Source: a virus
Length of the DNA stretch: 64,000 bases
IMG/VR virus record: IMGVR_UViG_3300027896_005002
Coordinates: 123,488-187,487 of that record
Direction: 5' to 3' (one strand)
Shown: one piece after another, positions 25,829 to 28,759 of the stretch
Position numbering within the stretch: the first letter of the stretch is position 1
Layout: each line of letters starts with the position of its first letter
The notes under the pieces: model-generated
Told to the model about the DNA's origin: nothing
Databases searched by the model: none
The model's input: the letters and a program-made list of their open reading frames with translations, nothing else
Position numbers and translations under genes: made by a program

Positions 25829-28759
25829 TTATCTTCCTTGATAACTTTTACCTAGAAACCATTTATACCCACCTTTTTTCTTAAAATCTTTATATTTACC
25901 GAGTGCTCCTCTTAAATGACAGGATATTTTTCTGTTTTTGGGATTTTTCCACCATTTAATATATTCTGTATTACTTGAAAGATTTAATTTACTAATTATT
26001 CTTTGAGCCTTATCAGTTGACCATAAATCAGAAGAAATTGTTATAAATGACACTTTTGTTTTTGAAAATTGTTTGCCGAAGAACCATTTATACCCACCTT
26101 TTTTCTTAAAATCTTTATATCTCCAAACATTAAGCAATAAATGACATGTAATTTTTCTGTTTTTGGGATTTTTCCACCATTTAACATATTCAGGATTATT
26201 TTTGAATCCTAATTTGCTGACTACTTTTTGAGCTTTATCTAATAGCCACAAATCAGAAGTAAGATTTCTTAAAGTTTTTTTTGTTCGTTTTTTTAATATT
26301 CGTATATTGAATTGTTTGCCGAAGAACCATTTATAGCCGCCTTTTTTCTCAAAATCTTTATATCTGTGAACACGGGAGTATAAATGACATGTAATTTTTC
26401 TGTTCTTGGGATTTTTCCACCATTTAAGATATTCATAAGGATTAAAAAACTTAAATGGTCTAATTACTTTTTGAGCTTTATCTAAAGACCACAAATCAGT
26501 ATAACTTTTACCGAAGAACCATTTATAGCCACCTTTTTTTTCAAAATCTTTATATCTATATACATGACTATGTAAAAGTTGTGAGATATCTTTATTTTTA
26601 GGATTTTTCCACCATTTAACATATTCAGGATTATTTTTGAATCCTAATTTACTAATTACTTTTTGAGCTTTATCTAAAGACCACAAATCAGTATAACTTT
26701 TACCGAAGAACCATTTGTAGCCACCTTTTTTTTCAAAATCTTTATATCTATGAGGTCGACTATGTAAATGTGATGATATTTCTTTATTTTTAGGATGTCT
26801 CCACCATTTAGCATATTCATGATTATTTTTGAAACCCAGTTTACTGACTATTTTTTGAGCTTTATCAATTGGCCATATATCGCCATAAAGTCTTTCAACG
26901 CATTCTTTAAATTTTTGTAATGTTTCAAATGTTTCAAAAGCATTCATTGCGCTTAAGTAAATAAATGCCGGATTTTCTCTTACAATACCTCTATTTAATT
27001 TATTAATATCAAATGTTATAAAGTCTTCTTTTGCTCTTTTCCATAATTTTGTTATAATTTGTTTTGTAAATACTGTAACATCAATATTTGTAAGATGATT
27101 ATTTTCAATTTCTTCTTGAATTATTTCAGTCGTTATTTGTATTGATTGATTTTTAACTAATCGTCTATTTGTAATTAATTGTGGGTTTTCTGCAGTCCAT
27201 ATTTTCATTTCTTGAATGATATCATCATTAATATTATGAATTATATTTGCAGGCAATGTCTTATAATAATCTATATTATTAGATTCTTTATTTTTTTTTC
27301 TTTTAATTTTATCGTTTTTAACAGCTTTACACTGTGCATAAATATGTTCAAATTGCATTGAAAGTACTATAGAATTGTAATAATTTTCTTTTCGTTTTAA
27401 TGATAATTCTTTATCTAAATCTTCCATTGTATATGGTAAGATATGATATACAGTTGCATGATTTTTATTATTAGCTTTTCTTAATGCTCGACCCATTCTT
27501 TGTATGACATCTGTTATATTTTTCACTCCGGGTATTAATATTCTTGTTAAATATTTCCAATTAGCACCTTCTCTAAATGTTCTTAAAGCAACTACAAAAT
27601 CTAACATTTCATTATTATCACTATTATGAACTTTTTCAGTATAATCGTACTTTTCTTTTCTATCGGATTCAACTACTAATTCAATTCCTTTTAGCCATTT
27701 GCCATTTCTTTTAATTCTTGTTAAAATACCATCATGTTCTATTTCGGGATTATCACTATTACTTATCATTTTAAAAATCATATTTACATCATTGTATTTA
27801 CCAGTTGATTCTCTACTATTAACATCAGGTACATAAATCAATGATGGTTCCCACATTGAATCTCTATTAAGTATTACATTTGTTGCATCTTCATACGATC
27901 TTTCATATAATACAAAATTGTAATCAAAATAATCAAAATTACAATCTCTTAAATGTTCGTCGTATGGATATTTAAATGTTGTTACTTTTTCCATATTTTC
28001 TTTAGATAGCAGTGACCATTTATCGCCTCTGAATGGTGTTGCTGATACTAATCCTAATTCATTATTTCTTTCAGGAAAAGAATGTACATCATGGACAATT
28101 TTTCCCATTTTATTAAAAGTTATTAAATCTTCATTTTCATATTCTTCACATAATAAATGTTGAACTTCATCAATTGTGTAAAGTATGTATGTAAAAGCTT
28201 CAGGATTTAAATCATAAGCTAGAACTAAAGTAGCATTACAGCATACTATTATTCTATCTAAAGGATCTTTATTTCTATAAGATGTAATTGCAGTTAATAA
28301 TCTTTTAGCATTTGATAAATCTGATTTATCAATACCAATAATTTCAACATCCCAATTTATTTGAGATTTATCAGGTGCTATTATTTTCATGGGATTGAAA
28401 CTTCGTGTAATTTGTCTTTGTGGTGTTGATATGATATTGAATAATTTTGGATTTTTTTGTAATTTTTTATAATTTAGAATAGCTATTTCAACAGCTTTTC
28501 CTGCGCCAGTTGGAGCATCAATTAAATAGTATTTTTTATTAAGTAATTTGTTGTAACAGTTTAATTGCCAAGGTTTTAATATAAGTGGTTGACCGGGTAT
28601 TGATGGTTGAGGAATTGAAATTGTTTTGTCAAAATCATCAATACAAAAAGATCTTTTAATTCGAACTCGATTACCGGGTTTTCCAAAAATTTGATTTTCA
28701 TTACGCGAAATACGATTACCGTCATCATCAAATAATGAATCAATGTCAATTTTATTCAT
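25829..28759 (-). CDS. SF2 (DEAD/DEAH-like) helicase with five C-terminal ~63-aa tandem repeats
   Basis: Walker A DAPTGAGKA, DEVQH box, SAT, and motif VI QRMGRALR. The C-terminus holds 5 repeats with consensus DLWSLDKAQKVISKLGFKNNPEYVKWWKNPKN.KIS.HL....RYKDFEKKGGYKWFFGK. Confidence 0.6.
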   Translation of the reverse strand: MNKIDIDSLFDDDGNRISRNENQIFGKPGNRVRIKRSFCIDDFDKTISIPQPSIPGQPLILKPWQLNCYNKLLNKKYYLIDAPTGAGKAVEIAILNYKKLQKNPKLFNIISTPQRQITRSFNPMKIIAPDKSQINWDVEIIGIDKSDLSNAKRLLTAITSYRNKDPLDRIIVCCNATLVLAYDLNPEAFTYILYTIDEVQHLLCEEYENEDLITFNKMGKIVHDVHSFPERNNELGLVSATPFRGDKWSLLSKENMEKVTTFKYPYDEHLRDCNFDYFDYNFVLYERSYEDATNVILNRDSMWEPSLIYVPDVNSRESTGKYNDVNMIFKMISNSDNPEIEHDGILTRIKRNGKWLKGIELVVESDRKEKYDYTEKVHNSDNNEMLDFVVALRTFREGANWKYLTRILIPGVKNITDVIQRMGRALRKANNKNHATVYHILPYTMEDLDKELSLKRKENYYNSIVLSMQFEHIYAQCKAVKNDKIKRKKNKESNNIDYYKTLPANIIHNINDDIIQEMKIWTAENPQLITNRRLVKNQSIQITTEIIQEEIENNHLTNIDVTVFTKQIITKLWKRAKEDFITFDINKLNRGIVRENPAFIYLSAMNAFETFETLQKFKECVERLYGDIWPIDKAQKIVSKLGFKNNHEYAKWWRHPKNKEISSHLHSRPHRYKDFEKKGGYKWFFGKSYTDLWSLDKAQKVISKLGFKNNPEYVKWWKNPKNKDISQLLHSHVYRYKDFEKKGGYKWFFGKSYTDLWSLDKAQKVIRPFKFFNPYEYLKWWKNPKNRKITCHLYSRVHRYKDFEKKGGYKWFFGKQFNIRILKKRTKKTLRNLTSDLWLLDKAQKVVSKLGFKNNPEYVKWWKNPKNRKITCHLLLNVWRYKDFKKKGGYKWFFGKQFSKTKVSFITISSDLWSTDKAQRIISKLNLSSNTEYIKWWKNPKNRKISCHLRGALGKYKDFKKKGGYKWFLGKSYQGR
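25840..26880. repeat. tandem DNA repeats (about 190-230 bp, 5 copies) encoding the helicase C-terminal repeats
   Basis: The unit GCCGAAGAACCATTTATA(G/C)CCACCTTTTTT...AAAATCTTTATAT recurs near 25850, 26078, 26318, 26505 and 26700. Confidence 0.6.

What the first reader, a model, noticed from the sequence alone, without database searches (positions are those of the whole stretch)
25829..26880. Novel ~63-aa tandem repeat (5 copies) at the helicase C-terminus, encoded by ~200-bp tandem DNA repeats
The repeat reads DLWSLDKAQKVISKLGFKNNPEYVKWWKNPKNRKISCHL..RYKDFEKKGGYKWFFGK. I do not recognise it as a known domain. Its aromatic and basic character suggests nucleic-acid binding. The DNA copies are similar enough to risk assembly collapse or expansion.
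Basis: seen in the sequence. Interest (0 to 1): 0.5.

Follow-up and report, generated by a model that had tools for sequence, protein, structure and literature searches.

The report
Divergent "integrase repeat" array on phage helicase
The five-copy repeat at the end of this huge-phage helicase is real, but it is a very divergent, unusually lysine-rich version of a catalogued yet uncharacterised repeat (Pfam INT_rpt) that is often fused to helicases and restriction-type enzymes, so it is a new member of a known kind rather than a new domain.

Summary
A 976-aa ORF (25829..28759, minus strand) has an intact SF2 helicase core followed by five tandem 64-aa units. The units are 61-77% identical as protein and 71-85% as DNA, with dN/dS 0.2-0.5.

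The claim of novelty is not supported. A profile of the five units, searched against 1.84 billion proteins, finds multi-repeat proteins that Pfam scores as INT_rpt (PF14882), with E down to 2.6e-15. Profile-profile comparison gives 97% probability over the whole unit. A profile built only from canonical units hits this ORF alone in the window, once on each of the five repeats. Pfam's own model misses the window protein.

The same architecture recurs. Related phage helicases carry 1-6 such units. Of 30 cellular INT_rpt proteins sampled, 13-14 carry ResIII/Helicase_C and 10 carry an Mrr-type nuclease domain.

The window variant is very basic (+8 to +12 per unit). I infer a multivalent DNA-binding tether for the helicase; this is untested.

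Assembly collapse is unlikely here, because the longest exact repeat is 65 nt. A sister locus does differ by exactly one unit between two assemblies.

The parts
25829..28759 (-). Whole gene: 976-aa SF2 helicase with a C-terminal five-unit repeat array (stop codon at 25829-25831)
   Evidence: ORF list. The exact protein is in public collections as P0001, on contigs of 415,903 and 416,029 bp and one of 20-50 kb.
27425..28582 (-). SF2 helicase core (about aa 60-445) with motifs I, II (DEVQH), III and VI
   Evidence: Motifs located. Pfam DEAD and Helicase_C hits are weak and below threshold, and phrog_9690 'DNA helicase' scores 8e-7. The family profile A5 hits the second RecA domain of XPB/Rad25 at 1e-10 and UvsW at 6e-6 in the PDB. 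PADLOC PbeA gives a partial hit at 2e-9.
26882..27424 (-). Family-specific middle region (about aa 446-626) between the helicase core and the repeats
   Evidence: It aligns with P0002-P0005 and P0014, including an invariant Pro at position 597. No domain hit.
26690..26881 (-). Repeat unit 1 (aa 627-690), divergent INT_rpt
   Evidence: AlphaFold model of this unit: pLDDT 93.5. Hit by the canonical-only HMM, i-E 1.8e-6.
26498..26689 (-). Repeat unit 2 (aa 691-754)
26306..26497 (-). Repeat unit 3 (aa 755-818), followed by a 17-aa basic linker IRILKKRTKKTLRNLTS (26255-26305)
26063..26254 (-). Repeat unit 4 (aa 836-899), followed by an 11-aa linker (26030-26062)
25838..26029 (-). Repeat unit 5 (aa 911-974), the most divergent copy; two further residues and then the stop
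25226..25828 (-). Conserved 200-aa partner gene that directly abuts the helicase stop codon; function unknown
   Evidence: 42% identity, E 8e-54, to the 210-aa ORF directly downstream of the sister helicase in L002. No Pfam, PHROG, PADLOC or PDB hit. Not called as a gene in the ENA annotation.

Best explanation
The gene encodes an SF2 (DExH, ResIII/XPB/UvsW-like) DNA helicase or translocase of a huge phage. Its C-terminus is an array of five small helical modules, and these are highly divergent members of the INT_rpt repeat family (Pfam PF14882). The array arose by successive duplications of a 192-bp unit and is kept under purifying selection. I infer that the array is a multivalent, strongly cationic nucleic-acid-binding tether that holds the motor on DNA or targets it there. 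INT_rpt arrays appear to play the same accessory role on cellular restriction-type helicase-nucleases. Shown here: the repeats, their homology to INT_rpt, the intact helicase motifs, the recurrent architecture, and the confident helical model. Inferred: DNA binding and the tethering role.
For: Homology to INT_rpt:
- The profile of the five units (A1), searched against 1.84e9 proteins, gave 19 hits at E<=1e-3. Examples are P0006 (2.6e-15), P0007 (4e-13) and P0010 (9e-9).
- Pfam scores those hits as INT_rpt: P0010 7.7e-51 with 8 stretches, P0012 3.9e-12, P0011 2.9e-11, P0017 2e-10, P0020 1.6e-8.
- hhalign of A1 against 22 canonical units: probability 97.1%, E 7e-11. Adding the two sister-protein units extends the aligned region to 54 columns, the whole unit: probability 97.3%, E 2.5e-11.
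- An HMM built only from canonical units hits only this ORF in the six-frame window (95 bits), once per repeat.
- A less selected profile of 180 units from cellular loci still hits only this ORF (E 5.5e-4), with hhalign probability 88-92%.
- The sister helicase P0005/P0026 has intermediate units (HLPTHPKRYKDWNEKGGWSWFLG). Pfam scores these as INT_rpt just below threshold (23.4 bits; marked 'weak').

Architecture:
- P0014, of the same helicase family and in a phage-like contig, carries 6 canonical-looking units. P0004 carries one.
- Of 30 INT_rpt ORFs from diverse Bacteria and Thaumarchaeota, 14 have Helicase_C, 13 ResIII, 10 Mrr_cat_2, 2 a methyltransferase domain and 2 an exonuclease domain. 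Their catalytic parts match PADLOC restriction models: REase_MTase_IIG 6.6e-103, REase_MTase_I 5.5e-67, PbeA 2e-26.
- P0022 joins these units to a phage endonuclease/HNH module.

Properties of the window array:
- Net charge is +8 to +12 per unit and the array pI is 10.2. There are 8 invariant lysines and 10-16 aromatic residues per unit.
- dN/dS is 0.2-0.5.
- AlphaFold gives pLDDT 93.5 and pTM 0.76.
Confidence: 0.6

Rival explanations
1. The array is a protein-protein interaction scaffold. It would recruit the helicase to a partner, such as the conserved 200-aa neighbour or replisome or packaging components, rather than bind nucleic acid.
For: Small helical tandem repeats often mediate protein binding. 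A conserved partner gene abuts the helicase in both the window and the sister locus. No DNA-binding fold was recognised.
Against: INT_rpt arrays occur on many unrelated DNA enzymes (SF2 helicases of different subfamilies, Mrr nucleases, methyltransferases, an endonuclease module). What these share is the substrate DNA, not a common partner. P0014, with canonical units, lacks the 200-aa partner. A charge of +8 to +12 per unit points to a polyanion.
Confidence: 0.2
2. The repeat is a new domain unrelated to any known family, and the similarity to INT_rpt is convergent or compositional.
For: No Pfam, PHROG or NCBIfam hit to the window protein or to single units. The C-terminal half aligns only after the sister sequences are added. 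A less selected canonical profile gives only 15.6 bits.
Against: E-values over the whole library reach 2.6e-15 against proteins that Pfam calls INT_rpt. In P0006, by my count from the sequences, 17 of 26 residues match: FEEAQKIVSKLGFKNLKEYGEWWKKN against LDKAQKVISKLGFKNNPEYVKWWKNP. All five units are hit in register. Intermediate sequences exist in P0005. AlphaFold becomes confident only when canonical units are used as the alignment: pLDDT rises from 63 to 93.5.
Confidence: 0.04
3. The copy number of five is an assembly artefact (collapse or expansion of a repeat array).
For: These are short-read metagenome assemblies (MEGAHIT-style k141 contig names). The sister gene has 2.5 units in one assembly and 3.5 in another, which differ by one 219-bp unit, and its array contains a 108-nt exact direct repeat.
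Against: Copies are only 71-85% identical, and the longest exact direct repeat in the array is 65 nt, shorter than k=141. The reading frame is intact through all units. The identical 976-aa protein is on three contigs, and the ENA contig is identical to the window over 8,931 bp.
Confidence: 0.06
4. The array binds a non-nucleic-acid polymer such as cell-wall or teichoic-acid material, like other aromatic, W-rich bacterial repeats.
For: The units are rich in W, Y and F with a conserved Gly-aromatic motif.
Against: It is fused to a cytoplasmic helicase with no signal sequence or lysis context. The family partners are DNA enzymes. The predicted fold is all-helical.
Confidence: 0.03

Closest known systems
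Pfam PF14882 INT_rpt ('Integrase repeat unit', formerly PHINT_rpt)
   Same: A tandem unit of about 55-64 aa. The N-terminal half shares the motif (F/L)xEAxxhVxxLxhKxxxEYxxW. The C-terminal half is colinear, with YK ... G-aromatic-x-W-F-h-G. Homology is supported at the profile level. Arrays are fused to SF2 helicases.
   Different: Pfam's model does not detect the window protein. The conserved lPxxP is replaced by HLxSxx. GWxxWxDFLG is shortened to GGYKWFFGK, and DFEKK is inserted after YK. A PKN motif is added. Net charge is +8 to +12 against about -2 to +9. This variant was found in only two protein clusters, the window protein and P0005/P0026, among the representatives of about 15 billion proteins.
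Cellular ResIII / Helicase_C / Mrr_cat_2 proteins with INT_rpt arrays (restriction-type enzymes; match PADLOC REase_MTase_IIG, REase_MTase_I and PbeA models)
   Same: The layout is an enzymatic part of about 650 aa followed by a C-terminal array of 6-10 units, or an N-terminal array. The window helicase also gives a partial PbeA hit.
   Different: The helicase cores are only distantly related to the window family (weak hits). The window protein has no nuclease or methyltransferase domain. It sits in a huge-phage genome, not a cellular defence locus.
Pfam PF18780 HNH_repeat (homing endonuclease associated repeat)
   Same: A short helical tandem repeat attached to DNA enzymes. The canonical INT_rpt protein P0010 cross-hits it at 28.1 bits, above its threshold of 26, so the two families appear to be related.
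   Different: No hit for the window protein at E<=1.
Pfam PF03457 HA (helicase-associated domain)
   Same: A helical repeat in multiple copies at helicase termini. P0018 combines a near-threshold HA hit with INT_rpt units.
   Different: No sequence match to the window units, and a different motif.
Phage T4 UvsW and archaeal XPB/Rad25 SF2 helicases
   Same: These are the closest solved relatives of the motor domain. The family profile scores 1e-10 to XPB and 6e-6 to UvsW.
   Different: The similarity is partial, covering one RecA-like domain or the N-terminal motifs only. Neither helicase carries this repeat array.

Membership tests
Pfam PF14882 INT_rpt | Scores at or above the Pfam gathering threshold (26.5 bits) with the PF14882 model | tested here: not met
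   No INT_rpt hit at E<=1 for the full protein or for a single unit. The sister protein P0005 scores 23.4 bits, below threshold, and P0026 is marked 'weak'. The model is narrow: it also misses the canonical-looking units of P0014, P0021 and P0023.
Pfam PF14882 INT_rpt | Statistically supported homology to units of proteins that do pass the Pfam threshold | tested here: met
   The A1 profile scores P0010 at 9e-9, P0011 at 1.5e-5 and P0012 at 6.8e-5 over a library of 1.84e9 proteins, and all of these pass the INT_rpt threshold. hhalign gives 97% probability, E 7e-11 and 2.5e-11. The canonical-only HMM gives 95 bits with five in-register stretches. The less selected profile gives E 5.5e-4 and 88-92% probability.
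Pfam PF14882 INT_rpt | A unit of about 55-60 residues occurring as tandem arrays | tested here: met
   Five tandem 64-aa units. Canonical arrays have 2-22 units.
Pfam PF14882 INT_rpt | Hallmark C-terminal motifs lPxxPxxxY...GWxxWxDFLG (taken from the canonical alignment A2) | tested here: inconclusive
   The Y, an aromatic-x-W and the final G are kept and are colinear in A4. The two prolines are lost in 4 of 5 units and the motif is shorter. The sister protein retains LPTHP and GGWSWFLG as an intermediate form.
Pfam PF14882 INT_rpt | Shared three-dimensional fold with canonical units | not testable with these tools
   No solved structure is detectable for the family by sequence or by fold search. 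The window unit is predicted confidently only when canonical units serve as the alignment (pLDDT 63 rising to 93.5), which is indirect support.
SF2 helicase (DEAD / ResIII / Helicase_C) | Conserved motifs I (Walker A), II (DExH), III (SAT) and VI (QxxGRxxR) | tested here: met
   APTGAGKA at 82, DEVQH at 197, SAT at 239, QRMGRALR at 420.
SF2 helicase (DEAD / ResIII / Helicase_C) | Scores at or above the Pfam gathering thresholds | tested here: not met
   The window protein scores DEAD 17 bits (threshold 26) and Helicase_C 15.3 bits (threshold 23.5). Its homologues do pass: P0005 ResIII 44.8 bits, P0014 DEAD 45.8 bits. The family profile hits XPB at 1e-10 in the PDB.
Pfam PF18780 HNH_repeat | Match to the HNH_repeat model | tested here: not met
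   No hit for the window protein. Only the canonical INT_rpt protein P0010 cross-hits it.
Pfam PF03457 HA domain | Match to the HA model | tested here: not met
   No hit for the window protein or a single unit at E<=1.

The most novel reading that the evidence does not exclude
The lysine-rich variant found here is a functionally distinct subclass of INT_rpt. It is known from only two protein clusters among the representatives of about 15 billion proteins. Together with the conserved 200-aa partner gene it would form a huge-phage-specific two-gene module, for example a DNA-remodelling or counter-defence motor. The INT_rpt unit itself would be a nucleic-acid-binding fold with no solved relative.
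Probability: 0.15. Interest if true: 0.5.

Novelty: new member of a known kind. Interest (0 to 1): 0.25.

Why it matters
It removes a false 'novel domain' lead. It also shows that Pfam's INT_rpt model is too narrow: it misses this variant and several canonical-looking arrays. INT_rpt is widespread in bacteria, Thaumarchaeota, and jumbo and huge phages, yet has no known structure or function. The fusions found here (SF2 helicases, Mrr-type nucleases, methyltransferases, endonuclease modules) and a confident model without PDB neighbours make it a reasonable target for structural and DNA-binding studies. The highly charged five-unit phage array would be a convenient test case. For annotation, the gene should be called an SF2 DNA helicase with C-terminal INT_rpt-like repeats.

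Tried and rejected
- The word-indexed homology search with the 350-aa repeat region found nothing and missed even the protein itself (the protein is in the database). That negative is uninformative.
- The same tool with the merged unit alignment returned only 3 short proteins.
- tblastn of two units against 50,697 phage genomes gave only chance hits at E about 9.
- AlphaFold with only the five window units was poor (pLDDT 63).
- A PDB sequence search with the canonical profile gave only chance hits to glucanases.
- The IMG/VR scan for relatives of the variant found none. The merged alignment was too diverse for a loci scan.
- P0008 (a giant FG-GAP protein) and P0015 (a different repeat protein) among the profile hits look like false positives.
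- The 178-aa gene downstream of P0014 is not a homologue of the 200-aa partner gene. The partner gene has no PDB relative.
- A literature search found no functional study of INT_rpt/PHINT_rpt. It appears only in a table of repeat families modelled because no structure was known, and in a list of integrase markers.
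Full report
**1. The observation**

The window has 34% GC, and the gene region falls to 26%. It carries a 976-aa ORF on the minus strand at 25829..28759. Its last 350 residues are five tandem units with a 64-aa core:
- aa 627-690
- aa 691-754
- aa 755-818
- aa 836-899
- aa 911-974

A 17-aa basic linker follows unit 3 and an 11-aa linker follows unit 4. Tandem Repeats Finder reports DNA periods of 192 and 243 bp with 77-83% matches. Thirty of 64 alignment columns are invariant.

Copies are 71-85% identical as DNA and 61-77% as protein. Pairwise dN/dS is 0.21-0.49, so the repeats are translated and selected as protein.

**2. Context**

The region is from a huge phage.
- An 821-aa protein with major-vault-protein domains (30747..33212) is 43-44% identical to proteins encoded in the 462-735 kb 'uncultured phage' genomes LR756500, LR756501 and LR756503.
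- The exact 976-aa protein (P0001) lies on contigs of 415,903 and 416,029 bp.
- The ENA contig is identical to the window over 8,931 bp.

The N-terminal 626 residues form an SF2 helicase with intact motifs I, II (DEVQH), III and VI. The Pfam DEAD and Helicase_C hits are below threshold. A profile of six family members hits XPB/Rad25 (1e-10) and UvsW (6e-6) in the PDB.

**3. What the repeat is**

Direct scans of the protein or of single units against Pfam, PHROGs and NCBIfam give nothing.

A profile of the five units was searched with HMMER against 1.84 billion representative proteins. It found 19 proteins at E<=1e-3.
- The best is a sister helicase, P0005 (E 4e-24).
- The others are multi-repeat proteins such as P0006 (2.6e-15), P0007 (4e-13) and P0010 (9e-9).

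Pfam scores these proteins as INT_rpt, PF14882 'Integrase repeat unit'. P0010 scores 7.7e-51 with eight stretches. P0012, P0011, P0017, P0020, P0016 and P0018 score 1e-8 to 4e-12.

Further tests agree:
- Twenty-two canonical units taken only from proteins above the Pfam threshold (A2) align to the window units with hhalign probability 97.1% and E 7e-11. This covers the N-terminal half of the unit only.
- Adding the two sister-protein units extends the alignment to 54 columns, the whole unit, at 97.3% and E 2.5e-11.
- An HMM built from A2 alone hits only this ORF in the six-frame translation of the window (95 bits), once on each of the five units.
- The A2 proteins had been picked as hits of the window profile, so I repeated the test with 180 units from 30 cellular loci found independently of the window sequence. 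The ORF is again the only hit (E 5.5e-4, 15.6 bits, five in-register stretches). hhalign gives 88-92%.

The homology is therefore real but distant.

The sister protein is an intermediate form. Its units keep LPTHP and GGWSWFLG, and Pfam scores them 23.4 bits, just below the threshold of 26.5.

Compared with canonical units, the window variant:
- has lost the P-x-x-P motif;
- has shortened GWxxWxDFLG to GGYKWFFGK;
- has gained a PKN motif and a DFEKK insertion;
- is far more basic, at +8 to +12 per unit with an array pI of 10.2, against -2 to +9.

**4. Structure**

AlphaFold with only the five window units was unconvincing (pLDDT 63). With 38 units including canonical ones, it modelled unit 1 at pLDDT 93.5 and pTM 0.76 as a small helical bundle, with helices at 5-15, 20-28, 30-36, 49-52 and 54-58.

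**5. Architecture and likely role**

A helicase followed by a tandem INT_rpt array is a recurrent design.
- In the same helicase family, P0014 (959 aa, in a phage-like 59-kb contig) carries six canonical-looking units.
- P0004 carries one unit.
- P0005 and P0026 carry 2.5 and 3.5 units.

A scan of one genome per prokaryotic species returned 31 loci in many bacterial phyla and in Thaumarchaeota. The ORFs hold 2-22 units, either at the C-terminus after about 650 aa of enzyme or at the N-terminus.

Of 30 ORFs scanned:
- 14 carry Helicase_C;
- 13 carry ResIII;
- 10 carry Mrr_cat_2;
- 2 carry a methyltransferase domain;
- 2 carry an exonuclease domain;
- 1 carries SNF2.

Their catalytic parts match PADLOC restriction-type models: REase_MTase_IIG at 6.6e-103, REase_MTase_I at 5.5e-67 and PbeA at 2e-26. 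P0022 joins the units to a phage endonuclease/HNH module. None of the 30 showed an integrase domain among the top families, so the Pfam name does not describe the commonest partners in this sample. The sample was pattern-selected and is therefore biased.

What these partners share is DNA as substrate. Taken with the strong positive charge and conserved aromatic residues, I infer that the array is a multivalent nucleic-acid-binding tether or targeting module for the motor. This is inference. No binding has been shown for any member, and the fold gives no independent support.

**6. Copy number**

The longest exact direct repeat inside the array is 65 nt, and copies differ by 15-29%. Collapse in a k=141 short-read assembly is therefore unlikely. 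The same protein is also found on three contigs.

The array type is nevertheless unstable. The sister gene in two contigs that are 98.6-98.9% identical (L002 from ENA, L034 from JGI) differs by a 219-bp indel, exactly one unit. The longer version holds a 108-nt exact direct repeat at that spacing. That indel is either real unit gain or loss by recombination, or a collapse in one of the two assemblies.

**7. Verdict**

The feature is real and under selection, but it is not a new domain. It is a divergent, hyper-basic member of the known but uncharacterised INT_rpt family, in an architecture that is common for that family.

Confidence that it is INT_rpt-related is about 0.9. Confidence in the DNA-tether mechanism is about 0.5-0.6.

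Interest is modest. The residual value lies in the family as a whole: it is widespread, has no solved structure, and is linked to DNA enzymes. A conserved partner gene of unknown function also sits next to the helicase.

Noticed in passing
window 25226..25828 (-): A 200-aa ORF starts immediately after the helicase stop codon. It is 42% identical (E 8e-54) to the 210-aa ORF directly downstream of the sister helicase in L002 (2992-3624), so the two genes form a conserved pair. The ENA annotation of the same contig does not call it. It has no Pfam, PHROG, PADLOC or PDB match.
   Followed up: partly
window 24304..25350 (-): A radical-SAM / 4Fe-4S (Fer4_12) protein of 348 aa. Its longest ORF overlaps the conserved 200-aa gene by 125 nt, so its true start is probably further downstream.
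   Followed up: no
L002 2481-2950 versus L034 2466-3160: The sister helicase gene differs between two contigs that are 98.6-98.9% identical by a 219-bp indel, exactly one repeat unit (828 versus 901 aa). The longer array contains a 108-nt exact direct repeat at offset 219. This is either copy-number polymorphism or an assembly collapse.
   Followed up: yes
window 30747..33212 (-): An 821-aa protein with major-vault-protein domains (MVP_shoulder 7e-21, Vault_3 7e-10). It is 43-44% identical to proteins encoded in the huge-phage genomes LR756500, LR756501 and LR756503.
   Followed up: partly
window 59074..60312 (+): A TnpB-like protein (OrfB_IS605 1.7e-13, Cas12f1-like TNB 3e-7) inside the phage genome. 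No Rfam RNA family was detected anywhere in the window.
   Followed up: no
window 16924..17979 (-), 61033..62184 (-), 8410..9549 (-): RNA/DNA repair-type genes: an RNA ligase with a PHA02142 OB domain, an RlaP nucleotidyltransferase, and a 379-aa protein combining a DnaJ domain with an ATP-dependent DNA ligase domain.
   Followed up: no
window 14438..15634 (+), 18641..19600 (-), 48460..49419 (-), 50001..50930 (-): A phiEco32-like COOH-NH2 ligase, a glutamine amidotransferase, a DUF4419 protein, and a protein with a cytidylyltransferase-like domain and a weak, below-threshold MazG hit.
   Followed up: no
P0002 (896 aa), about residues 640-896: A homologue of the window helicase carries a different C-terminal repeated motif (P...S..DEK..Y.....L.KAK, seen by eye) in place of INT_rpt units. 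Pfam finds nothing there. C-terminal repeat modules appear to be exchangeable in this helicase family.
   Followed up: no
P0014, P0021, P0023 (canonical-looking units): The Pfam PF14882 model fails to hit several proteins whose units clearly fit the canonical consensus. Its register is also shifted by half a unit relative to the structural unit modelled here. The model appears too narrow.
   Followed up: partly
window 26001..28000 and 38001..64000: GC drops to 26% over the helicase gene and stays near 28-32% in the right-hand 26 kb, against 36-42% over most of 2-22 kb and 30-36 kb. The genome is compositionally heterogeneous.
   Followed up: no
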